A stretch of DNA of 64,000 bases, taken from positions 9,946 to 73,945 of the forward strand of contig CAINDI010000143.1 of assembly GCA_903847335.1 (NCBI GenBank), in the 5' to 3' direction. Of the stretch, positions 5,770 through 33,079 are shown piece by piece (position 1 is the first letter of the stretch; each line of letters begins with the position of its first letter). The notes beneath the pieces are model-generated. The model was not told the origin of the DNA. It was given only the letters and a program-made list of their open reading frames with translations, and searched no databases. Position numbers and translations under genes: made by a program. This stretch comes from an uncultured Verrucomicrobiota bacterium. Its GTDB lineage: Bacteria; Verrucomicrobiota; Verrucomicrobiia; Palsa-1439.

Positions 5770-6874
5770 CCGGCAGCTCCAACAATTGAAGCGGATGGAT
5801 TGGCTGCTGACGGTGGCGGTGGTGTTGCTTGCGATTGGAAGTGTGGCGTTTATTTACAGCGCGTCGTACCGGGGGCCGGGACAACCGATGCCGGATTATT
5901 ACCGGATGCAAATCGGGTGGTTCGTGGTCGGCGCGGTGTTGTATGTCGCGGCGGCGGTAGTGGATTACCGGTGGATTTGCCAGTGGGCGACGGTTTGGTA
6001 TGTGGTGGCGGTGTTGTTGCTGCTGCTGGTGTTGTTTACCGGGATGAAAGTGTACGGCGCACGCCGGTGGCTTGGCTGGCATGGATTTGGGATTCAACCT
6101 TCGGAAGTGGCGAAGCTGGCAGTCTTGGTCGCGTTGTCGTATTATTTGTTTCATCGCACGGTGGAGATGCGCCGGCAATGGGCGACGATTGGTGGTGCGC
6201 TGGCGATTCTCGCGGTGCCGTTGGTATTAATCTTTGCGCAACCGGATTTGGGATCGGCGGTAATCTTGGCGTTGGTGACGGTGGGGTTGTTGTTTGTGGC
6301 CGGTGTGCGCGTGAAACATTTGGTGGTGCTGGTGGTGGCCGGGGTGTTGGCAATGCCGGTGATGTGGTTGCGAATGCGGGAATATCAGAAGGCGCGGCTG
6401 ACGGTGTTTTTGGATCCGGACCGGGATCCGTTGGGTGCGGGTTGGAATTTGAATCAATCGTTAATCGCCGTCGGCTCCGGTGGATTTGGTGGGAAAGGAT
6501 ATTTGCAGGGAACGCAGAATTTATTGGGATATTTACCGCGCACGGTGGCGCCAAACGATTTTCTATTCAGCGTGATTGCTGAGGAGAAAGGGTTTGTCGG
6601 CAGCGTGTGCGTGGTGGGGTTGTTTGCGGTGATTCTGTTTCGTGGGCTGCGGATTGCGGCAGAGGCGCGCGACCGCTTGGGAATGCTGTTGGCGACGGGA
6701 ATCGTCGGCCTGCTGTTTTTCCATGTCTTCGTCAACATCGGCATGACGATCGGCTTGCTGCCGGTCAAGGGGCTGCCGTTACCATTATTAAGCTACGGGG
6801 GGTCGTTCGTGTTGGCCACCATGACGGCACTCGGGCTTTTACAAAACGTGTGGATACACAGGAGAAACTACTGA
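5759..6874 (+). CDS. rodA: Peptidoglycan glycosyltransferase RodA (SEDS family).
   Basis: Start at M30 of the ORF-track ORF, overlapping the mrdA end by 11 nt. A 10-TM SEDS protein with the C-terminal PLPLLSYGGSF motif. Confidence 0.9.
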   Translation: MSISRQLQQLKRMDWLLTVAVVLLAIGSVAFIYSASYRGPGQPMPDYYRMQIGWFVVGAVLYVAAAVVDYRWICQWATVWYVVAVLLLLLVLFTGMKVYGARRWLGWHGFGIQPSEVAKLAVLVALSYYLFHRTVEMRRQWATIGGALAILAVPLVLIFAQPDLGSAVILALVTVGLLFVAGVRVKHLVVLVVAGVLAMPVMWLRMREYQKARLTVFLDPDRDPLGAGWNLNQSLIAVGSGGFGGKGYLQGTQNLLGYLPRTVAPNDFLFSVIAEEKGFVGSVCVVGLFAVILFRGLRIAAEARDRLGMLLATGIVGLLFFHVFVNIGMTIGLLPVKGLPLPLLSYGGSFVLATMTALGLLQNVWIHRRNY

Positions 6875-20995: not shown

Positions 20996-22177
20996 TTACC
21001 GGCGGTCGAGAATCTCCCAAACTTTTGCGATATAAAACCGGTAATTTGCGAGCGGTGTGCCATTGGGAATCCGGTGATCTAGTCCGAAGACGCAACCGCC
21101 AGTCTGCATGATTACCGGTAGCTTATATTCTAATTCTGCAGTGATTTCTTGCTGACTCCTGCGTAAAATATGTTTATCAAGACCGCCGAGAAAAGCGATA
21201 CGGTTACCATATTGTTCGCGGAGTTTAACGATGTCCATTCCTGCGGCTGGCTCGCACGGGAAAATACAATTTACGCCGGCATCCAAAAACGCCGGGATGA
21301 TTGGTCGCATATCGCCATCGCTATCCTGTTTAAACAAACGTGCACCGCGTTCCTGAGCTAAATCCCAAACGCGCCGGTAATACGGTTTGATAAATTCTTC
21401 GACATGTTTCGGGCCAATGAGCGGCCCACTTCTTCCTGCCATGTCTTCATGCACGGAAAGTTGATCGACGTGTGGCAAGTGTTCGCAAATCCGGACGACG
21501 GTTTCCGTAATGGTTTCGAGAATCGCGTGGATCAGTTCCGGTTGCTCGTAACAGGCCAGCGCTAGAGATTCTTCTCCCATCAGTTGGCGCGGCTCGTCGA
21601 AACCGCCAGGAATTTGAAGCGAGGTCAGTTGACCGGCTGTCGATTGTAACTGGCCGAAGCGCGCTTCCGAAAATTCATAATGCTGCCGGATGCGTTGCCA
21701 ATCATCCATATTTGCCACCGGATACGTTGTCGGCAAAGCCAATGTTGCGGATTTCTTGGCCATCTCCATTCGGCGTCCCATTTGGTCGCGATACACAAGC
21801 GAATCGGCTGTGTCTTCGAGAATGACCGGTTCATCTCCGCCGAGCCAGCCTGTGATTACCGGTAAGTTATTTTCAATGACTGTGCGATATCGGAAAGTCG
21901 AAAGATTGATTTCGACTGGCGTTGCGCCTTGTGCGGCCCATTCTTCTTTCAGCCCCACCAACGGGCCGAAAATTTCCGTGAACAATGGCCGGGTGTTCGC
22001 GCGAAACGTCATGTAGTCGAGATACTCCTCCCGGCTGACGATTTCACCGCCGCGTTTAATTGCGAGTGCTGCGTGAAAGGAGTGGATGTAGTCGTTGACA
22101 TTCATTGGCGTATTTTCTCGTGCGGCGACGGATTCGGCAATGGACAGACTCCGCAAAGTTTTGTACTTATGGCGCAT
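20996..22177 (-). CDS. Uroporphyrinogen decarboxylase (URO-D) superfamily protein, not HemE-like; substrate unknown.
   Basis: 393 aa. The length and hydrophobic TIM-barrel pattern resemble the URO-D/MtaA family. This is the first of two such paralogs in the window. Confidence 0.45.
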   Translation of the reverse strand: MRHKYKTLRSLSIAESVAARENTPMNVNDYIHSFHAALAIKRGGEIVSREEYLDYMTFRANTRPLFTEIFGPLVGLKEEWAAQGATPVEINLSTFRYRTVIENNLPVITGWLGGDEPVILEDTADSLVYRDQMGRRMEMAKKSATLALPTTYPVANMDDWQRIRQHYEFSEARFGQLQSTAGQLTSLQIPGGFDEPRQLMGEESLALACYEQPELIHAILETITETVVRICEHLPHVDQLSVHEDMAGRSGPLIGPKHVEEFIKPYYRRVWDLAQERGARLFKQDSDGDMRPIIPAFLDAGVNCIFPCEPAAGMDIVKLREQYGNRIAFLGGLDKHILRRSQQEITAELEYKLPVIMQTGGCVFGLDHRIPNGTPLANYRFYIAKVWEILDRR

Positions 22178-22951: not shown

Positions 22952-23506
22952 TTACCAGTAAATGAAATTGGTAAAGCGGCGCTGGTCTTTGGTGGGGAGT
23001 GCTAACACGTCGGGGACGATGAAACGGTTGTCGTTCACATCCAGCAAGACTTTGCCTTCGGCTCCGAAATCTTCCGCCCGGTCGTGACGCCACGGCATGA
23101 TGAATTCCTGCCGGCCACGTTGAGTTTCCACGTCGAAGAATAGCAAGCCAAACTCGTGGCGAACGCCGTACACCCGGTGGATGATGTGTTCGTGGTATTG
23201 CTTTTTCAGAACGGCTTGAATCAAGGTCTGCGTTTCTTTTGGGAATGCGCTGAGGTTTTCAATGACGCCGATTTCGCCGACTTTATCTTTTTCGTCGGTA
23301 TAGCGTAGCGAGATGTAGCGGTCGGGATGGCGAATTGGAAACATCAATACAGCAAACACGCCTCGGTACATCTGGTCGCCTTTCACCGCGCAGTGTAATA
23401 GCGAAAATGCGCCTTCAAAAATGGTGGCCGTTTCCGGTAGCAACCGGCGCACGCCGGTAATCGAGAGCCGGTTGTCAGAGGTTGTTGGGAGAGTCGTGTC
23501 GCTCAT
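22952..23506 (-). CDS. Hypothetical cytoplasmic protein, 184 aa, transcriptionally linked to the upstream ABC exporter (possibly DUF1854-like).
   Basis: Its start codon lies 2 nt after the ABC gene stop on the same strand. It has no TM segments or signal peptide. Confidence 0.4.
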   Translation of the reverse strand: MSDTTLPTTSDNRLSITGVRRLLPETATIFEGAFSLLHCAVKGDQMYRGVFAVLMFPIRHPDRYISLRYTDEKDKVGEIGVIENLSAFPKETQTLIQAVLKKQYHEHIIHRVYGVRHEFGLLFFDVETQRGRQEFIMPWRHDRAEDFGAEGKVLLDVNDNRFIVPDVLALPTKDQRRFTNFIYW

Positions 23507-23508
23507 GG

Positions 23509-25734
23509 TTATGACTCCAACCGGGTCAACTCCGTTTGGATGCGGACTAAATTGTGATAGACACCTTTCAGTTCTAGTAGTTGCTCGTGCGAACCGGATT
23601 CAGCTACTTTGCCTTCATCAATCACATAAATCACATCGGCATTTTTTAATGTCGAGAGCCGGTGGGCAATCGCAATGGTCGTGCGGCCTTTGCATAATCT
23701 GACCAGCGCTTTCTGAATTTCTTGTTCCGATTCGGTGTCCACTGACGAGGTGGCTTCGTCGAGAATGAGAATCTTTGGGTCGCACAGCAATGCACGGGCA
23801 ATGCTGATGCGCTGGCGCTCTCCACCGGAGAGACCGGCACCGCGTTCGCCTAACTTCGTGTCGTAGGCGGACGGAGCGCGAGCGATAAAATCGTGGGCGT
23901 TCGCGGCTTTAGCGGCGTCCATCACAGCCAACGGTGAAGCGCCGGGACGACCGTAGGCGATGTTGTCCATGATTGTCGCTCGGAAAAGGAATGGTTCTTG
24001 AAGAACCAGCGCAACGTGTTTGTGAATGTCGTGCTGAGCGAGTGTGCGCACGTCTTGGTTGTCGATGAGCACTTGTCCATCTTGCGGATCGTAGAATCGG
24101 CAGATGAGATTTACTAAGGTGGTTTTACCGGAGCCACTTTTACCGACGATGCCGACGAACTGGCCGGGCTCAATTTTAATACTGACATTTTTCAGCACCG
24201 GACTGTAGGGATCGTAGCCGAAGGTTACATTGCGGAGCTCAATTGCGCCGTTGATGTTATTCAACGGTGTTGCCTCCGGCTCGTCGGTAATGCCGACGTT
24301 GGCATCCAACACCTCAAATACGCGCTGGCCGGCCGACATGAAACCGGTGAGCCAATTGGAGAACACGCTCATTGCCGAAATCGGTCCGTAGAACATTCCC
24401 ATGTAACCGAAGAATGCCATCAGCGTGCCGAGCGTCAGGTGGCCTTCAAAGACGCGATGACCACCGGCGTACCAGATGATTAATCCGCCGAGGCCGAACA
24501 CGAAACCCATGATTGGATTGAAAGTCGCGACGCTCATTTCGACGGACCGGCGGGCATTCTGCATGTACCGGGCTGAATCGCTGAATCGTTGTTCTTCGCG
24601 TTTTTCCTGTCCAAATAATTTCACCAGTCGGATGCCTTGCAATAGGCCGGTGAGGAGTTGCGACATTTTCGACTGACTATCCGAAAGCCGATAGTATTGT
24701 GGGTAGACATACTTCCAGAAAAAAATTGTTCCGATGACCACGAATGGCACCGGTAGCAAAACTAACAAGGCGAGATGCCAATTCATCATGAACAAGACTG
24801 CACCGATGCCGAGGACGAGAATGACATTTAGCAGAAATCCTTGTGCGACTTGCCAGACGAAACCTTGAAAATATTCCACGTCCCACAACACCCGGCTCAT
24901 TAAACTACCGGCCGAGTGCCGGTCATAATAATCCACGCTCAGACTCATCAGTTTGGTCTGCAGCCGTTCGCGTAATTCCTTAGAAACTCGCGTGCCAATC
25001 ATGCTGCTCGTCCGTCCGATAATCACATTCAAAAATTGTCGACCCAGCGACGCGCCGACCAGTCCGAGCAAAATCAGCGGCAACCAATGGATGTTTTCCT
25101 TCGGCGTCAGGACTTTATCCACGAGAATCCGGGTTAAATACGGAGGCAATAAATCTAATCCGACGCCCATAACCAAGATGCACAGCAGTAGCACGATGGA
25201 GTTCTGATACGGTTTCATTAGCCCCACGGACCGGAAAAACACACTACGACCACCGGCGCAACGTGGACACACCGCCCGGCGCGCCGGCAATGGTAATCCG
25301 CATTTCGTGCACGCAAACTCACTGGGGTGCACTAACGCTTCGGTGTTCAGTGGGTGGCCTTGGATCAGGCGTTCCAATTCCGCACGCACCTTGCCGAAGA
25401 TTTCGCGACGGGCGTTGCTGTAACGCGCCACGTCCACATAGGTGCCATCAATCAGCAGCTGTAAGAAACCGCTGCCAACCGTGTGGCGCGTTTGGACTTT
25501 CTGCGCATCTTTCAGTAAAAAAGGACCGGTGATGAGTGCAGTTGGTTGTGAGTGGGTCGGAACTGTAAAAATTTTTGTTTGAGTAACAACAACCCAAACA
25601 TCCTGAACCGTGCCGTCGATGGTGAGATCGCTGCGGACGCTGAACAGACACGCATCAGCGCCGAGGTTATGAACTTCCGGGCGCGTGTTTAATTCGCTCG
25701 GTACGCGCCCCAACAACAAATCGTTATTCGTCAT
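23509..25734 (-). CDS. ABCB-type exporter (fused TMD-NBD half transporter) with an extra ~160-aa N-terminal cytoplasmic domain containing a CxxC-x10-CxxC zinc ribbon.
   Basis: 741 aa. Residues ~165-480 form a 6-TM ABC exporter domain. The NBD carries Walker A (GKSGSGKTT), the signature (LSGGERQR) and Walker B (ILILDEAT). The N-terminal domain has CTKC...CPRC. Confidence 0.85.
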   Translation of the reverse strand: MTNNDLLLGRVPSELNTRPEVHNLGADACLFSVRSDLTIDGTVQDVWVVVTQTKIFTVPTHSQPTALITGPFLLKDAQKVQTRHTVGSGFLQLLIDGTYVDVARYSNARREIFGKVRAELERLIQGHPLNTEALVHPSEFACTKCGLPLPARRAVCPRCAGGRSVFFRSVGLMKPYQNSIVLLLCILVMGVGLDLLPPYLTRILVDKVLTPKENIHWLPLILLGLVGASLGRQFLNVIIGRTSSMIGTRVSKELRERLQTKLMSLSVDYYDRHSAGSLMSRVLWDVEYFQGFVWQVAQGFLLNVILVLGIGAVLFMMNWHLALLVLLPVPFVVIGTIFFWKYVYPQYYRLSDSQSKMSQLLTGLLQGIRLVKLFGQEKREEQRFSDSARYMQNARRSVEMSVATFNPIMGFVFGLGGLIIWYAGGHRVFEGHLTLGTLMAFFGYMGMFYGPISAMSVFSNWLTGFMSAGQRVFEVLDANVGITDEPEATPLNNINGAIELRNVTFGYDPYSPVLKNVSIKIEPGQFVGIVGKSGSGKTTLVNLICRFYDPQDGQVLIDNQDVRTLAQHDIHKHVALVLQEPFLFRATIMDNIAYGRPGASPLAVMDAAKAANAHDFIARAPSAYDTKLGERGAGLSGGERQRISIARALLCDPKILILDEATSSVDTESEQEIQKALVRLCKGRTTIAIAHRLSTLKNADVIYVIDEGKVAESGSHEQLLELKGVYHNLVRIQTELTRLES

Positions 25735-25829
25735 GGTTCACCGGCAAGCATATGAAGCTTCATGCCGACCGCTGCAAGAAAATTATCGCCGGTACACCTG
25801 AAATGGCATACCGGCGATAATGAGACCGG

Positions 25830-26423
25830 TTATTTATTTACGGCTTCGAAGTATTTCAGCGAGCCTTTCGGATCGGCTTTCATGGTCTTGTCGCCGGGAT
25901 GCCAGTTAGCCGGGCAGACTTCGCCGTTTTTCTCGAAGAATTGGAGTGCATCGAGAATACGAATGGCTTCGTCCACATTCCGTCCGAGCGGTAGGTCGTT
26001 GACGAGCGCGTGGCGGACGATGCCTTGTTGGTCAATGATGAAGAGTCCGCGCAGTGCCACCGCACCGTTGGCAGTGAGCACGCCGTAGCTGGTGGCAATC
26101 TGTTTGGTGAGGTCGGAAACGAGCGGATAATCCAGACCGCCGAGACCGCCGGCCTTCCGGGGAGTGTTAATCCACGCGAGGTGCGTGTATTGGCTATCGA
26201 CGCTGACACCGAGAATTTCGGCGTTGCGGCTTTTGAATTCAGCCACTTTTTCATTGAAGGCGATGATTTCCGTCGGGCAGACGAAAGTGAAATCCAACGG
26301 ATAGAAATAGAGGACGACGTACTTTTTACCTTTGTAGTCGCTCAAACTGATGTCTTTGAATTGGCCGTTGACGACGGCGGTCGCTTTGAATTCTGGGGCT
26401 GGTTTCTGAACGAGTGTGCTCAT
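25830..26423 (-). CDS. Typical 2-Cys peroxiredoxin (AhpC/Tsa family).
   Basis: 197 aa. The peroxidatic Cys motif is FTFVCPTEI. The resolving Cys is in GEVCPANW. Confidence 0.9.
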
Positions 26424-26552
26424 GGTTTAATCTCCTTAAGATTGTTAGTGATTGGGCTGAATGGTAGCACAGGAACAACATTTCGCAAGTGGTCAACGCG
26501 AATGCATAGTTTCGGCTTTCCTCTGTCCACAGTCATCCGATATACTTCCGTC

Positions 26553-28007
26553 ATGTCAGTTCAAAACCGCATCATCAAAGTGCAGAAGCGCAACCGGGCA
26601 TTGGTGACCTTTGACGAGCGGGCAATCTTTCTCGCCATCTTGCGCGCGGCTGAATCCATCGGCGGTCTCCAGCAAGATTACCTGCCGGGCGTCAATGACA
26701 AGCTTTTCGATGCCTACGCGCTCGACGAAAAAGTCGCTGAGTTTCTCACGGATGCCGTCGTCATCTGTCTGAATGCCGATCCACATCACCACATCGCCAA
26801 TTTTCCGCCGACCATCGAAACGATTCAGGATGATGTCGTTCACGTTTTGCGCAGCTATGGATTTCAAAATACCGCCGACGCGTACGAATGTTACCGGTGG
26901 GGTCGGCACTGGTTGCGCGAAGGCGCGATTGCCGATACGCAATTCGTCGGCAACGGTTTTCCTCGCAAACGCATGGAGAAAACTCTCGAATGGAACCGGC
27001 AGCATGGTTGCGATACCGTCACCGGTCTCAACGAAGTCGTTCGCAGTGGCAAACTCCAGCCGCTCGTCGAAGCATCGTTAGCGACCTATGAAGCCTCGCT
27101 CGACGAAGCGGCCAAAAAAGTTATCGCCCGTTTTAACGCCGGCGACAAATTGCGGATGATGTGGATTAGTGGTCCGAGTTCCTCCGGTAAGACCACCACC
27201 ACTGTCAAGCTGACGCAACGCCTCGAAAAACAGGGTCTCCGGTTTCTGATGCTCAACCTTGACGATTATTTTTGGGCACTCATCGAACATCCGACGGATT
27301 GGATTAACGACCGGAATTTTGAAACGCCGGAAGCTCTCGACATTCAACTTCTCAATCAACACCTCAAAGATTTGCTCGCCGGTAAGACCATTGATAAACC
27401 GGTGTACAGCTTCAAAGAAGGCCGGCGCATCGCGACGAAGCCGGTGAAGCTTGAGCCGGAGCAGATTCTTTTGCTCGATTGTCTCCACGGATTTTATCCA
27501 CCGATTACCGAAGGCATTGATCCGAGTGCACAATTCCGCGTCTATATCGAAACTCTCAACGTCATGCTCGAAGGCGATGGTTCCACTCGACGTCTCACGC
27601 GGTTTCCGGATATCCGGCTTATCCGCCGGATGCTCCGCGACGTGCAGCACCGCAATCACAGCCCGCTCTCAACTCTGCTGCATTGGCATTATGTTCGCTG
27701 GGGCGAACTTTTTTCCATCATCCCGCTCATGGGGCTGGCGGACCATGTCGTTAACGCTGGGTTTCCGTTTGACTTGCCGGTGTTAAAATCATTTTTCATC
27801 GGTGCCGGTGGTCATTTACCCTCCGGTGAAGCCATGAACCAATATCGCGGCTTCCTCGATGCGCAAATCCGTCACCGGCGCATCCAGACTTTACTCGAAT
27901 CGGTGACCGGTGTGCCGCAAGACCAGTTGCCCAGCTTAATTCCCGGTGACGCCGTCATCCGTGAATTCATCGGCGGCAGTACCATCCCAATCCCACACAA
28001 CCAATGA
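26553..28007 (+). CDS. ATP-cone domain fused to a uridine kinase / phosphoribulokinase-family P-loop nucleoside kinase.
   Basis: ATG at 26553 (M182 of the ORF-track ORF). The upstream part of that ORF is antisense read-through of the prx gene. The N-terminal ~90 aa is an ATP-cone (IIKVQKRNRALVTFDERAIFLAILRA). The P-loop is ISGPSSSGKTTTT, followed by a PRK-like core. Confidence 0.65.
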   Translation: MSVQNRIIKVQKRNRALVTFDERAIFLAILRAAESIGGLQQDYLPGVNDKLFDAYALDEKVAEFLTDAVVICLNADPHHHIANFPPTIETIQDDVVHVLRSYGFQNTADAYECYRWGRHWLREGAIADTQFVGNGFPRKRMEKTLEWNRQHGCDTVTGLNEVVRSGKLQPLVEASLATYEASLDEAAKKVIARFNAGDKLRMMWISGPSSSGKTTTTVKLTQRLEKQGLRFLMLNLDDYFWALIEHPTDWINDRNFETPEALDIQLLNQHLKDLLAGKTIDKPVYSFKEGRRIATKPVKLEPEQILLLDCLHGFYPPITEGIDPSAQFRVYIETLNVMLEGDGSTRRLTRFPDIRLIRRMLRDVQHRNHSPLSTLLHWHYVRWGELFSIIPLMGLADHVVNAGFPFDLPVLKSFFIGAGGHLPSGEAMNQYRGFLDAQIRHRRIQTLLESVTGVPQDQLPSLIPGDAVIREFIGGSTIPIPHNQ

Positions 28008-29152
28008 ACGACCAAACCAAACTCATTACCGGCCTCCAACAAGCCTGGCGGGACGAAAACGCCAGTGCGCGAAATTACCGGGCGTTGTCGGAACGGGAAT
28101 CCAATCCGGAACGCAAAGCAATTTTACTGCGCCTGGCCGAAGCGGAAGACAAGCACGCCGCGAATTGGCTGGCACGCTTGAAAGAACTCGGCGCTGATCC
28201 CGGCCTTTATCAAGAATCCGCTAGCGAACGAACACGCCGGTGGTTGCTTGTGCAGAGTGGTACCGAAAGTGCCGTCGTCAAGTTGGAGGCGATGGAGAAC
28301 GACGCCGATGCGTTGTACGATGATTTGCTGAAAGTTGCCACCGGTGCTGACCACACGCAAATCGCGGAAGCCCAACGCGAAGAAGAAGCGCATGCCAAAG
28401 TATTGAACGACATGACCGGCGCATTTTCGCCGACGCAACGCAAATTGGACCGGCTGCTCGGTCGTGAGAAATGGCACGTCACCGCCGGTGGTTGGATTGG
28501 CCAAGCGATTTATGGTGCGAACGACGGTCTCGGCGCGGCATTCGGTGTCGTCAGCGGCGTGGCCGGCGCAACGGCGGCGGACGCGAAATTTGTTTTGTTG
28601 GCCGGTGTCACCACGGCGATTGCCTCGGCGTTGTCGATGGGCAGCGGCGCGTACTTGGCGACAAAATCGGAGCGCGAAGTTTACTCTGCTGAAATCGAAC
28701 GGGAACGTCGTGAAATTGCTGAGAACCCGAAAGAAGAACTCGAAGAGATGGCGTTGTTCTACCAGCTCAAAGGTTTTTCACCGGCCGAAGCGGAAAAGAT
28801 GGCGGCCAAACTCGCGGAGCAGCCGGAGCATTTTCTTCAAACGCTGACGCACGAGGAGCTAGGTTTATCGGAACGGTCGTTCCCAAATCCCTGGCGCGCG
28901 GCGTTCAGCGCCACGGCTAGCACGGCAGTCGGCGCATTTATTCCGGTGATTCCATTTTTCTTCATGCACGGCACGCCGGCGTTGATTGCGTCCTTTGTCA
29001 TCAGTACCGCGGCGCATTTTGGGGTGGGGGCGGCGAAAGTGATTGTCACCGGTCGGTCGTGGTTTAAGAGCGGGATGGAAATGACATTCGTCGGACTCGG
29101 CGAAGCCATCATTACCTACGGCATCGGTTTGCTAATTGCGCGCATCCGGTAA
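28004..29152 (+). CDS. mbfA: Erythrin-VIT1 family protein (MbfA-like): N-terminal ferritin/rubrerythrin-like diiron domain plus C-terminal CCC1/VIT1 iron-manganese transporter domain.
   Basis: ATG overlaps the stop of the preceding gene (ATGA at 28004-28007). The N-terminal half has ferritin-like E-x-x-H pairs (AEAEDKH, EEEAHAKV). The C-terminal 5-TM VIT domain contains GANDGL. Confidence 0.7.
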   Translation: MNDQTKLITGLQQAWRDENASARNYRALSERESNPERKAILLRLAEAEDKHAANWLARLKELGADPGLYQESASERTRRWLLVQSGTESAVVKLEAMENDADALYDDLLKVATGADHTQIAEAQREEEAHAKVLNDMTGAFSPTQRKLDRLLGREKWHVTAGGWIGQAIYGANDGLGAAFGVVSGVAGATAADAKFVLLAGVTTAIASALSMGSGAYLATKSEREVYSAEIERERREIAENPKEELEEMALFYQLKGFSPAEAEKMAAKLAEQPEHFLQTLTHEELGLSERSFPNPWRAAFSATASTAVGAFIPVIPFFFMHGTPALIASFVISTAAHFGVGAAKVIVTGRSWFKSGMEMTFVGLGEAIITYGIGLLIARIR

Positions 29153-29279: not shown

Positions 29280-29288
29280 ACGTACGAC

Positions 29289-29322
29289 GGGCCTGAAAGC
29301 AATTTCAGGCCCGTTTGTTGTT
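29289..29322 (+). terminator. Rho-independent terminator downstream of the tRNA.
   Basis: A 10-bp GC-rich stem (GGGCCTGAAA / TTTCAGGCCC) with a GCAA loop, followed by GTTTGTTGTT. Confidence 0.6.
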
Positions 29323-32320: not shown

Positions 32321-33079
32321 ATGAAAATAACGCCGGCACAGTTGGACTTTTATGAACGGAATGGTTTCCTAGTCGTTGAAGACCTGATCTCAACGAAAAA
32401 CCTAGAGATTTTAAGCCGAAGAATTGACGAGATCCAGCAGGGGGTACTCCAAGCACAGGAGTCTGCGAAAGGTGGACAACCTGTAGGTTTTTTAATTGAA
32501 AAACAGAGTGACGGCTTAGCCGTGACAGCGAAACCCGCGGTGCGAAAACTTACCAATCTCGCATTCGTGGATGATTTTTTTAAGTCGATTGCCGCCAGTC
32601 CAAATATTCTAGACATTGTCTCACAACTCACCGGTGGTGGAACCGAGCTTATGCTTTACAGTGATCAGGCATTTCTAAAACCCGCTTTTTGTGGTTCAGC
32701 CAAACCTCTCCACCAAGATAATTCCTATTTTAAAGTCACGCCGAATTCTGCAGGAGTTACCTGTTGGCTAGCGATTGATAATGCAACCGTAGAAAATGGC
32801 TGTTTGAATTACATCCCCGGCACACACAAGCTTGGGCTAGTGAAGCATAAGGCTACTGATGACCCGGCACATCTAGTTCCAGATGTTGACTTCAAACTTG
32901 GAGTGGAAATACCACTGCCTATTCCGGCTGGTTCTTGTCTTTTTCATCACCTACTGGTCATGCATAGCTCTAAGGTTAACAGTAGCCCAAAGTCACGGCG
33001 GGCCTGGGCGCTGCATTATGCGAATCGCACTGCAGAAAAATCCGTTAAATCATGGGAGAATATGCTCAAGCTACGGTAG
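32321..33079 (+). CDS. Phytanoyl-CoA dioxygenase (PhyH) family Fe(II)/2-oxoglutarate-dependent dioxygenase.
   Basis: 252 aa. N-terminal YERNGFLVVEDLI. H-x-D in PLHQDNSYF, with a distal His in IPGTHK. Sits in a locally low-GC segment. Confidence 0.75.
   Translation: MKITPAQLDFYERNGFLVVEDLISTKNLEILSRRIDEIQQGVLQAQESAKGGQPVGFLIEKQSDGLAVTAKPAVRKLTNLAFVDDFFKSIAASPNILDIVSQLTGGGTELMLYSDQAFLKPAFCGSAKPLHQDNSYFKVTPNSAGVTCWLAIDNATVENGCLNYIPGTHKLGLVKHKATDDPAHLVPDVDFKLGVEIPLPIPAGSCLFHHLLVMHSSKVNSSPKSRRAWALHYANRTAEKSVKSWENMLKLR

What the first reader, a model, noticed from the sequence alone, without database searches (positions are those of the whole stretch)
25830..29152. Peroxiredoxin, ATP-cone::nucleoside-kinase fusion, and a translationally coupled MbfA-like ferritin-transporter
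A 2-Cys peroxiredoxin is transcribed divergently from a two-gene unit in which the kinase stop and the mbfA start overlap (ATGA). Pairing an ATP-cone-regulated, uridine-kinase-like P-loop kinase with an Er-VIT1 membrane ferritin is functionally unexpected. The ATP-cone is the (d)ATP allosteric sensor domain of RNR and NrdR. Together with the peroxiredoxin, this suggests an oxidative-stress and iron module in which nucleotide status gates a salvage kinase.
Basis: partly seen in the sequence, partly recalled or inferred. Interest (0 to 1): 0.55.

Follow-up and report, generated by a model that had tools for sequence, protein, structure and literature searches.

The report
ATP-cone nucleoside-kinase beside peroxide/iron stress genes
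The three genes are real and correctly identified: a peroxiredoxin, an uncharacterised but widespread uridine-kinase-like enzyme carrying an ATP/dATP-sensing domain, and an MbfA-type iron exporter. The kinase's link to oxidative-stress genes is confined to one small branch of Verrucomicrobia, so this is a modest lead rather than a new system.

Summary
Prx (25830-26423, minus strand) is a typical 2-Cys peroxiredoxin. The kinase (26553-28007, plus strand, 484 aa) combines an ATP-cone with a Udk/PRK-like P-loop kinase. The third gene (28004-29152, plus strand) encodes an erythrin+VIT1 protein. The kinase stop and the VIT1 start overlap as ATGA.

ATP-cone::Udk-like kinases form a large, already catalogued and uncharacterised family. 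Sources name them "ATP cone domain-containing protein" or "uridine kinase", and they occur in many phyla. Across 80 species-level loci the kinase has no conserved gene partner and is mostly free-standing.

Peroxide/iron genes (KatG, aquaporin, two Prx types, Er-VIT1) flank the kinase only in one monophyletic Verrucomicrobial subclade: 10 loci plus the window. Their arrangement varies. The overlapping kinase-VIT1 pair occurs only in relatives at 84-99% identity. Kinases of that subclade show no distinguishing sequence signature. No Fur, PerR, Irr or OxyR consensus site lies in the 129-bp spacer.

Most likely this is a generic (d)ATP-regulated ribonucleoside salvage kinase sitting in an inherited stress-gene neighbourhood. 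Co-expression with the iron exporter in this lineage is plausible but unproven. Interest is low to moderate.

The parts
25782..25821 (-). Terminator-like hairpin just downstream of the Prx stop codon. Implies that Prx is monocistronic.
   Evidence: 17-pair stem with 8 G-C pairs, followed by a T-rich tail.
25830..26423 (-). Typical 2-Cys peroxiredoxin of the AhpC/Prx1 type, 197 aa. It has CP Cys49, CR Cys170 and the GGLG and YF motifs.
   Evidence: PF00578 141.6 bits and PF10417 50.3 bits. Below the AhpC and PrxU equivalog cut-offs. Motifs located.
26424..26552 (.). 129-bp divergent spacer. For Prx (on the minus strand): SD AAGGAG at 26432-26437, an extended -10-like TGCTACCAT at 26461-26469, and a -35-like TTGCGA at 26483-26488. 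For the kinase: a -10-like TATACT at 26541-26546, only 6 nt before the ATG, with no SD. This points to a putative leaderless start.
   Evidence: Sequence and coordinates. The Prx promoter-like elements are shared with L088. The same -10-to-ATG geometry is seen in L085, L087 and L088. No inverted or direct repeats. No Fur, PerR, Irr or OxyR match above chance. The promoter assignments are inference.
26553..28007 (+). ATP-cone::Udk-like P-loop kinase, 484 aa.
26574..26900 (+). ATP-cone domain, residues 8-116. It keeps K12-R13 and F20 of the N-terminal hairpin motif and carries an insertion of about 25 residues relative to the profile.
26979..27983 (+). Conserved kinase module, residues ~143-477. 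Features: P-loop G207-T216 (27171-27200); D237, the catalytic-base equivalent; E257, the ribose-binding equivalent; Y285 and F287; G290 in place of the UCK2 base-reading His117; a lid at R358/R359/R362; HWHYVR at 377-382; and a C-terminal REF motif at 470-472.
   Evidence: Invariant columns across phyla. Residue-by-residue alignment to UCK1/UCK2 and T. thermophilus Udk. The ~550-aa 'nucleoside kinase' relatives align from residue ~143 onward.
28004..28007 (+). ATGA stop/start overlap between the kinase and the VIT1 gene. There is no SD upstream, so re-initiation coupling is likely.
   Evidence: Sequence. The same 4-nt overlap occurs in the P0006 contigs and in L085.
28004..29152 (+). Er-VIT1 (MbfA-type architecture) membrane iron transporter, 382 aa. 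The erythrin domain (residues 11-135) carries two ExxH motifs (E48-H51 and E127-H130). The VIT1 domain covers residues 167-375.
   Evidence: PF01988 220.3 bits and PF02915 26.9 bits. E 2.5e-29 to the Eucalyptus VIT1 structure 6iu3 over residues 156-375. ExxH motifs. MbfA equivalog model not met.
29286..29315 (+). Terminator-like hairpin ending the two-gene kinase-VIT1 unit.
   Evidence: 13-pair stem with 7 G-C pairs, 134 nt after the VIT1 stop. The T tail is weak.

Best explanation
This is an ordinary stress-gene neighbourhood in a Verrucomicrobial genome (Limisphaerales/Pedosphaera-like).

Prx is a thioredoxin-type typical 2-Cys peroxidase. It is transcribed alone from its own promoter and ends at a strong terminator.

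On the other strand, a two-gene unit encodes a member of a large uncharacterised family of Udk-like kinases, followed by an erythrin-VIT1 iron exporter.

The kinase module transfers the gamma-phosphate of ATP to the 5'-OH of a ribonucleoside-like acceptor. The inferred catalytic parts are the P-loop G207-T216, D237 as the base, E257 binding the ribose hydroxyls, and an arginine lid at R358/R359/R362. The N-terminal ATP-cone binds ATP or dATP. As in RNR and NrdR, it would set activity by changing oligomeric state or domain packing. Salvage flux would then follow the adenine-nucleotide pool.

The acceptor is probably not read as in UCK, because Gly290 replaces the base-reading His.

The exporter removes Fe2+ to limit Fenton chemistry. 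In this lineage it is translated by re-initiation at the ATGA junction, so its synthesis is tied to that of the kinase.

The proximity of the kinase to Prx, KatG and VIT1 is a positional feature inherited within one subclade. It is not a property of the kinase family.

Shown here: gene structures, domains, fold, family spread and the synteny pattern. Inferred: substrate class, the allosteric role of the ATP-cone, translational coupling, the leaderless start, and iron export.
For: Domains by profile search.

UCK-equivalent residues from residue-level alignments. These residues are invariant across phyla.

Family size and names. Alternative N-terminal modules sit on the same kinase core: 2x ATP-cone, Metallophos+ATP-cone, and ThrRS-N-like. 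This argues for a regulated generic kinase.

No conserved neighbour appears across 80 species-level loci, and the kinase mostly has flanking gaps above 50 nt.

The association with peroxide and iron genes is restricted to one clade. That clade's kinases have no specific residues.

Wider inherited synteny (MutS, URO-D-like, PhyH, PMT_2) surrounds the kinase in L001, L004, L091 and the window.

Both transcription units are bounded by hairpins.

An mbfA mutant of Bradyrhizobium is sensitive to iron and H2O2 (PMC4902296). That explains why an Er-VIT1 gene sits among peroxide genes.
Against: Within the subclade the kinase is flanked by at least five different peroxide/iron gene families in shifting arrangements: KatG, MIP, a 197-aa Prx, a 172-aa Prx and Er-VIT1. 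This holds in 11 of 11 places, counting the window. Such persistence may reflect selection for co-expression rather than inertia.

The kinase-VIT1 junction is a tight ATGA overlap with no SD. That makes the two products stoichiometrically linked in this lineage.

The ATP-cone score is only 2.7 bits above the gathering threshold. The basic residue of the 'KI' motif is displaced in the window protein.
Confidence: 0.6

Rival explanations
1. True functional module. In this Verrucomicrobial subclade the ATP-cone kinase is an integral, co-regulated part of a peroxide/iron stress response. It would be made from a leaderless, translationally coupled transcript together with the iron exporter. Its role would be to re-supply nucleotides when iron-dependent nucleotide metabolism, such as RNR, is damaged, with the ATP-cone reporting (d)ATP status.
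For: 11 of 11 subclade places carry at least one of Prx, KatG, MIP or Er-VIT1 within about 5 kb of the kinase, in different arrangements. ATGA coupling to VIT1 occurs in three lineages. A downstream 172-aa Prx is tightly packed (-4 to +8 nt) in L001 and L006. A 17-bp imperfect palindrome, CGTCAAGnYTATTGTCG, is conserved between the divergent KatG/MIP and kinase genes in L001, L006 and L091. A leaderless-type -10/ATG geometry is shared by four loci.
Against: The associated loci form one clade, so a single event suffices. The association is absent in sister Verrucomicrobia and in all other phyla. There are no clade-specific residues in the kinase. No recognisable Fur, PerR, Irr or OxyR operator is present, and the 17-bp palindrome is absent from the window. 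The surrounding non-stress genes are also syntenic, which indicates inherited gene order.
Confidence: 0.22
2. The P-loop domain is not a nucleoside kinase. It would phosphorylate another small metabolite, in the manner of pantothenate, glycerate, a sugar phosphate or nicotinamide riboside. The 'uridine kinase' label would then be a family-level misnomer.
Against: The best sequence matches are Udk/UCK at 27-30% identity. The residues equivalent to catalytic Asp62, ribose-binding Asp84 (here Glu), Tyr112 and Phe114 are kept and are invariant across phyla.
Confidence: 0.2
3. The ATP-cone is a degenerate relic. It would no longer sense nucleotides and would serve only as a structural or oligomerisation domain.
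For: The Pfam score is marginal at 28.5 against 25.8. There is an insertion of about 25 residues. In the window protein the Gly of KRxG is replaced and the Lys of the 'KI' motif is displaced. Precomputed hits in close relatives are often flagged weak or faint.
Confidence: 0.15

Closest known systems
Uridine-cytidine kinase (Udk/UCK2; PF00485, TIGR00235)
   Same: Same P-loop fold and the closest sequence relatives among solved structures. It keeps the P-loop, the catalytic Asp (D237 ~ D62), an acidic ribose binder (E257 ~ D84), Tyr and Phe of the acceptor pocket (Y285 and F287 ~ Y112 and F114) and an Arg-rich lid.
   Different: It scores below the Udk equivalog cut-offs. His117 is replaced by Gly290. 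It has an N-terminal helical extension of about 60 residues and a C-terminal extension of about 75 residues, both with their own invariant motifs. It carries an N-terminal ATP-cone. UCK is feedback-inhibited by UTP and CTP at the active site and is not controlled by a separate sensor domain (my own knowledge).
ATP-cone regulatory domains of ribonucleotide reductases and NrdR (PF03477)
   Same: Profile match above threshold, the conserved K-R hairpin motif, and a predicted fold that superposes on class III RNR, NrdB and NrdR cones. In those proteins ATP or dATP binding switches oligomeric state and activity (PMC9110341, PMC5794259, PMC11226230; abstracts).
   Different: Here the cone is attached to a kinase rather than to an RNR or a Zn-ribbon repressor. 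It is divergent, with an insertion of about 25 residues. Ligand binding and its effect have not been tested.
ATP-cone + P-loop kinase fusion of archaeal 2-phosphoglycerate kinase (recalled from Aravind, Wolf & Koonin 2000; not verified with the tools here)
   Same: It is a precedent for an ATP-cone placed N-terminal to a small-molecule P-loop kinase.
   Different: It belongs to a different kinase family (AAA_33/COG2074-like, not PF00485), has a different substrate and occurs in a different lineage.
MbfA, the membrane-bound ferritin iron exporter of Bradyrhizobium and Agrobacterium
   Same: Same two-domain architecture: an N-terminal erythrin domain with two ExxH motifs, followed by a C-terminal VIT1 domain. 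MbfA protects against iron and H2O2 stress (PMC4902296), which fits a position next to a Prx.
   Different: It is not an orthologue by the NCBIfam equivalog model, scoring 17.7 bits against 450. It is co-translated with a kinase. Its regulation is unknown, and no Irr/ICE-like site was found.
~550-aa bacterial 'nucleoside kinase' proteins (ThrRS-N-like domain + the same long Udk-like core)
   Same: They share the whole conserved kinase module, residues ~143-477, at 32-38% identity.
   Different: They carry a different N-terminal module, with weak ThrRS N-terminal similarity in place of the ATP-cone. They are also uncharacterised as far as the searched library shows.

Membership tests
ATP-cone (PF03477) | Profile score at or above the Pfam gathering threshold | tested here: met
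   28.5 bits against 25.8 over residues 8-116. Marginal here, but strong in family relatives: 77.6 bits in P0136 and 142.7 bits for the tandem cones of P0135.
ATP-cone (PF03477) | Fold: a beta-hairpin plus four-helix bundle that superposes on the RNR and NrdR cones | tested here: met
ATP-cone (PF03477) | Binds ATP or dATP and changes activity or oligomeric state | not testable with these tools
   K12-R13 and F20 are conserved. No binding data exist.
Uridine kinase (Udk equivalog TIGR00235 / NF004018) | Score above the curated equivalog cut-off | tested here: not met
   91.5 against 220.3 and 82.9 against 180.
PRK/Udk superfamily (PF00485) | Profile match, P-loop and catalytic Asp | tested here: met
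   57.1 bits against 22. GPSSSGKTTT and D237 are invariant. UCK/Udk are the best solved sequence and Foldseek matches.
Uridine kinase (function) | Pyrimidine-reading His (UCK2 His117) in the acceptor pocket | tested here: not met
   The aligned residue is Gly290, conserved in the family. The role of His117 is from my own knowledge of the UCK2 structures.
Typical 2-Cys peroxiredoxin (AhpC/Prx1 subfamily) | AhpC-TSA domain plus the C-terminal Prx domain, with peroxidatic and resolving cysteines | tested here: met
   PF00578 141.6 bits and PF10417 50.3 bits. Cys49 lies in FVCP and Cys170 in VCP.
AhpC (TIGR03137 equivalog) | Score above the equivalog cut-off; an AhpF partner | tested here: not met
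   158.1 against 272. No AhpF-like gene lies next to it. The GGLG and YF motifs point to the Prx1-like 'sensitive' type (the meaning of these motifs is from my own knowledge).
MbfA (Er-VIT1 iron exporter) | N-terminal erythrin di-iron domain plus C-terminal VIT1 domain | tested here: met
   PF02915 26.9 bits and PF01988 220.3 bits. Two ExxH motifs. E 2.5e-29 to the VIT1 structure 6iu3.
MbfA (Er-VIT1 iron exporter) | Orthology by the NCBIfam equivalog NF045676 | tested here: not met
   17.7 bits against 450.
MbfA (Er-VIT1 iron exporter) | Exports Fe2+ and protects against iron and H2O2 | not testable with these tools
   Inferred from the characterised MbfA (PMC4902296).
Conserved kinase-VIT1 operon | The gene pair is adjacent and co-oriented in related genomes | tested here: inconclusive
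   Overlapping pair in the window, P0006 (88% identity) and L085 (84%). VIT1 lies 2-4 kb downstream in L001, L005 and L091. It is absent in L004, L016, L087 and L088 and in all relatives at 75% identity or below.

The most novel reading that the evidence does not exclude
In one Verrucomicrobial lineage an ATP/dATP-sensing nucleoside-like kinase has been recruited into the peroxide/iron stress response. It would be made from a leaderless transcript and translationally coupled to an Er-VIT1 iron exporter. Adenine-nucleotide status would then gate a salvage or repair phosphorylation step during Fenton stress. The acceptor could be a non-canonical nucleoside, since Gly replaces the base-reading His. 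That would be the first physiological role, and the first non-RNR/NrdR output, assigned to an ATP-cone in bacteria.
Probability: 0.15. Interest if true: 0.6.

Novelty: new member of a known kind. Interest (0 to 1): 0.3.

Why it matters
The only uncommon element is the ATP-cone::Udk-like kinase. Its family is large: 402 representative clusters at E<=1e-30 and more than 7,600 sequences. It is spread over many phyla, yet I found no paper on it in the searched library. Biochemical characterisation would extend ATP-cone allostery, so far studied in RNRs and NrdR, to a kinase. The Verrucomicrobial stress-gene context gives a cheap, testable hint about when the enzyme is expressed. By itself the locus does not reveal a new system or mechanism.

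Tried and rejected
1. Regulator sites in the 129-bp spacer and in eleven homologous upstream regions. I scanned the Fur (19-mer and 7-1-7), PerR, Irr-ICE, OxyR and RirA consensus sequences. The best matches were 8-11 of 14-19 specified positions, which is chance level. No direct or inverted repeats were found in the spacer.

2. The 17-bp imperfect palindrome CGTCAAGnYTATTGTCG, shared by L001, L006 and L091. It is absent from the window even with 3 mismatches. It may simply be two back-to-back -35 boxes.

3. Unbiased clustering of neighbours within +/-4 genes in about 74 loci. No neighbour family was shared by more than 5 loci, and those 5 were closely related Anaerolineales.

4. Homology among small unknown ORFs flanking the kinase in L085, L087, L089, L090 and L091. 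None was shared apart from a BON-domain gene in L090 and L017.

5. Clade-specific residues or cysteines in kinases of the stress-associated clade. There were none of note, and the four conserved Cys are also present outside the clade.

6. Defence-system check with PADLOC. It returned only a weak P-loop hit.

7. A profile search meant to collect diverse homologues for the structure alignment. It returned the same Verrucomicrobial clade, so the model was built on a shallow 34-sequence alignment.

8. The afdb50 fold library was unavailable.

9. Literature searches for ATP-cone together with uridine kinase or nucleoside kinase. They found nothing relevant.
Full report
**1. What is in the sequence**

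- **Peroxiredoxin.** The gene at 25830-26423 (-) encodes 197 aa. It matches AhpC-TSA (141.6 bits) and the C-terminal Prx domain (50.3 bits). It has the peroxidatic Cys49 (FVCP), the resolving Cys170 (VCP), and the GGLG and YF motifs. It is below the AhpC and PrxU equivalog cut-offs.
- **Kinase.** The mechanical ORF begins at 26010, inside the Prx gene. The conserved start is the ATG at 26553. That start gives 484 aa, the length of most homologues.
- **Third gene.** It starts at 28004 within ATGA, so its ATG overlaps the kinase TGA. It encodes 382 aa with Rubrerythrin (26.9 bits) and VIT1 (220.3 bits) domains, two ExxH di-iron motifs, and E 2.5e-29 to the Eucalyptus VIT1 structure.
- **Unit boundaries.** Terminator-like hairpins follow the Prx stop (25821-25782, 17 pairs) and the VIT1 stop (29286-29315, 13 pairs). 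The layout is therefore one monocistronic Prx gene and one two-gene unit, diverging from a 129-bp spacer.

**2. The kinase**

*Domains and fold.* Pfam finds an ATP-cone at residues 8-116 (28.5 bits against a cut-off of 25.8) and PRK/Udk at 205-372 (57.1 bits). NCBIfam puts it nearest to Udk, but far below the equivalog thresholds.

*Residue mapping.* Residue-level alignments to UCK1, UCK2 and Thermus Udk were combined with an alignment across phyla.

| Kinase residue | UCK2 equivalent | Status |
|---|---|---|
| P-loop G207-T216 | P-loop | kept, invariant |
| D237 | catalytic D62 | kept, invariant |
| E257 | ribose-binding D84 | kept as Glu, invariant |
| Y285, F287 | Y112, F114 | kept (F287 invariant) |
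| Arg lid R358, R359, R362 | — (alignments stop before this region) | invariant across phyla |
| G290 | base-reading H117 | replaced by Gly |

The UCK2 residue roles are from my own knowledge of the UCK2 structures.

The conserved module spans residues ~143-477. It includes motifs that Udk lacks: WNxxHGCDT, HWHYVR and a C-terminal REFIGG.

**3. How common the fusion is**

- The word-indexed search returned more than 7,600 hits. The top 120 were all 484-513-aa ATP-cone+PRK proteins from Verrucomicrobia, which sources name "ATP cone domain-containing protein" or "uridine kinase".
- The exhaustive search of 50%-identity representatives gave 4,407 hits at E<=1e-3 and 402 at E<=1e-30.
- Variants on the same kinase core include tandem ATP-cones, Metallophos+ATP-cone, and ~550-aa "nucleoside kinase" proteins whose N-terminus weakly resembles the ThrRS N-terminal region.
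- Species-level genomes carrying the ATP-cone form include Verrucomicrobiota, Bipolaricaulota, Chloroflexota, Sumerlaeota, Kiritimatiellia, Ignavibacteria, Marinimicrobia, Cloacimonadota and Lentisphaerae.
- I found no paper on this fusion in the searched library.

The architecture is therefore catalogued but uncharacterised. It is not a novelty of this window.

**4. Is the gene pair syntenic?**

*Subclade at 76-99% identity.* Peroxide or iron genes are always close to the kinase, but the arrangement shifts.

| Locus | Arrangement |
|---|---|
| window, P0006 | Prx197 \| kinase>VIT1 |
| L085 | kinase>VIT1 |
| L004 | KatG \| MIP>kinase>Ppx |
| L005 | KatG \| MIP>kinase, VIT1 2 kb downstream |
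| L001 | KatG \| kinase>Prx172>unknown>VIT1 |
| L006 | MIP \| kinase>Prx172 |
| L016 | KatG..kinase>Prx172 |
| L087 | AhpC-like>unknown>kinase>Prx171 |
| L088 | Prx197..kinase>PhyH |
| L091 | MIP \| kinase, VIT1 4 kb downstream |

*Outside that subclade.* tblastn found none of these genes near the kinase in the other Verrucomicrobia (67-75% identity), in Bipolaricaulota, or in about 55 loci of other phyla. Two annotated examples agree. Unbiased clustering of neighbours found no partner shared by more than five loci. The kinase usually has gaps above 50 nt on both sides.

*Reading the pattern.* On an NJ tree of the kinases, all stress-associated loci form one clade. Kinases of that clade differ from their sisters at only four unremarkable positions. 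Non-stress genes (MutS, URO-D-like, PhyH, PMT_2) are also syntenic around the kinase.

The simplest reading is a single ancestral placement, followed by local turnover of stress genes. Persistence through that turnover leaves room for selection on co-expression.

**5. Regulation**

- The spacer has no repeats and no Fur, PerR, Irr, OxyR or RirA match above chance.
- Prx has a strong SD and promoter-like elements (TTGCGA, 16 nt, TGCTACCAT) that are shared with L088.
- The kinase has no SD and a TATACT box 6 nt before its ATG. The same geometry occurs in L085, L087 and L088. This suggests a leaderless mRNA, which is an inference.
- The VIT1 gene has no SD either, so re-initiation at ATGA is the likely way it is translated, also an inference.

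**6. Mechanism proposed**

- Prx reduces peroxides.
- The Er-VIT1 protein exports Fe2+, as characterised MbfA does. An mbfA mutant is sensitive to iron and H2O2 (PMC4902296).
- The kinase phosphorylates a ribonucleoside-like acceptor. It would be switched by ATP or dATP binding to its cone, by analogy with RNR and NrdR (PMC9110341, PMC5794259, PMC11226230; abstracts).

Its position among stress genes is lineage-specific, and the family as a whole shows no such link.

**7. Verdict**

Each gene is a new member of a known kind. The kinase family deserves biochemical work, but this locus adds only a weak contextual hint.

Noticed in passing
window 26541-26553; L085 ~5980-6003, L087 ~5978-6003, L088 ~5985-6003: The kinase gene looks leaderless. 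A -10-like hexamer (TATACT or TATGCT) ends 6-7 nt before the ATG and there is no Shine-Dalgarno, in four related loci. The neighbouring Prx has a strong AAGGAG.
   Followed up: partly
L001 7936-7952, L006 1543-1559, L091 5938-5954: A 17-bp imperfect palindrome, CGTCAAGnYTATTGTCG, is conserved between the divergently transcribed KatG or MIP gene and the kinase gene. It could be an operator or two back-to-back -35 boxes. It is absent from the window.
   Followed up: partly
window 25830-26423 (-): The peroxiredoxin carries both the GGLG (92-95) and C-terminal YF (191-192) motifs. From my own knowledge, these mark hyperoxidation-sensitive, eukaryote-like 2-Cys Prx, which are unusual for bacterial AhpC-type enzymes.
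   Followed up: no
window 22952-25734 (-): A tightly packed pair lies upstream of Prx. It consists of an ABC exporter (741 aa) with an N-terminal extension of about 170 residues containing two CxxC pairs, followed by a DUF1854 protein (184 aa). Function unknown.
   Followed up: no
L018-L026, L028, L030: Kinase homologues in Bipolaricaulota/Acetothermia and 'Thermotogota' MAGs are 62-70% identical to the window's Verrucomicrobial kinase, against about 40% for other phyla. This suggests lateral transfer between these lineages, or binning errors.
   Followed up: no
P0135, P0136, P0192: The same long Udk-like core is fused to tandem ATP-cones, to a calcineurin-like phosphoesterase plus ATP-cone, or to a ThrRS-N-terminal-like domain (the ~550-aa 'nucleoside kinase' proteins). 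The family appears to swap its N-terminal sensor modules.
   Followed up: partly
L019-L021, L028: In Bipolaricaulota the gene immediately downstream of the kinase is a conserved ~325-aa P-loop GTPase resembling the Obg/DRG type. This resemblance is my reading of the sequence and was not profile-tested. It is the only recurrent co-directional partner seen outside Verrucomicrobia.
   Followed up: no
window 20996-22177 (-), 32321-33079 (+); L004 2162-4119: URO-D-like and PhyH genes recur near the kinase in the window and in L004. MutS recurs upstream in L001, L004 and L091. This indicates a larger inherited syntenic block in which only the stress genes turn over.
   Followed up: partly
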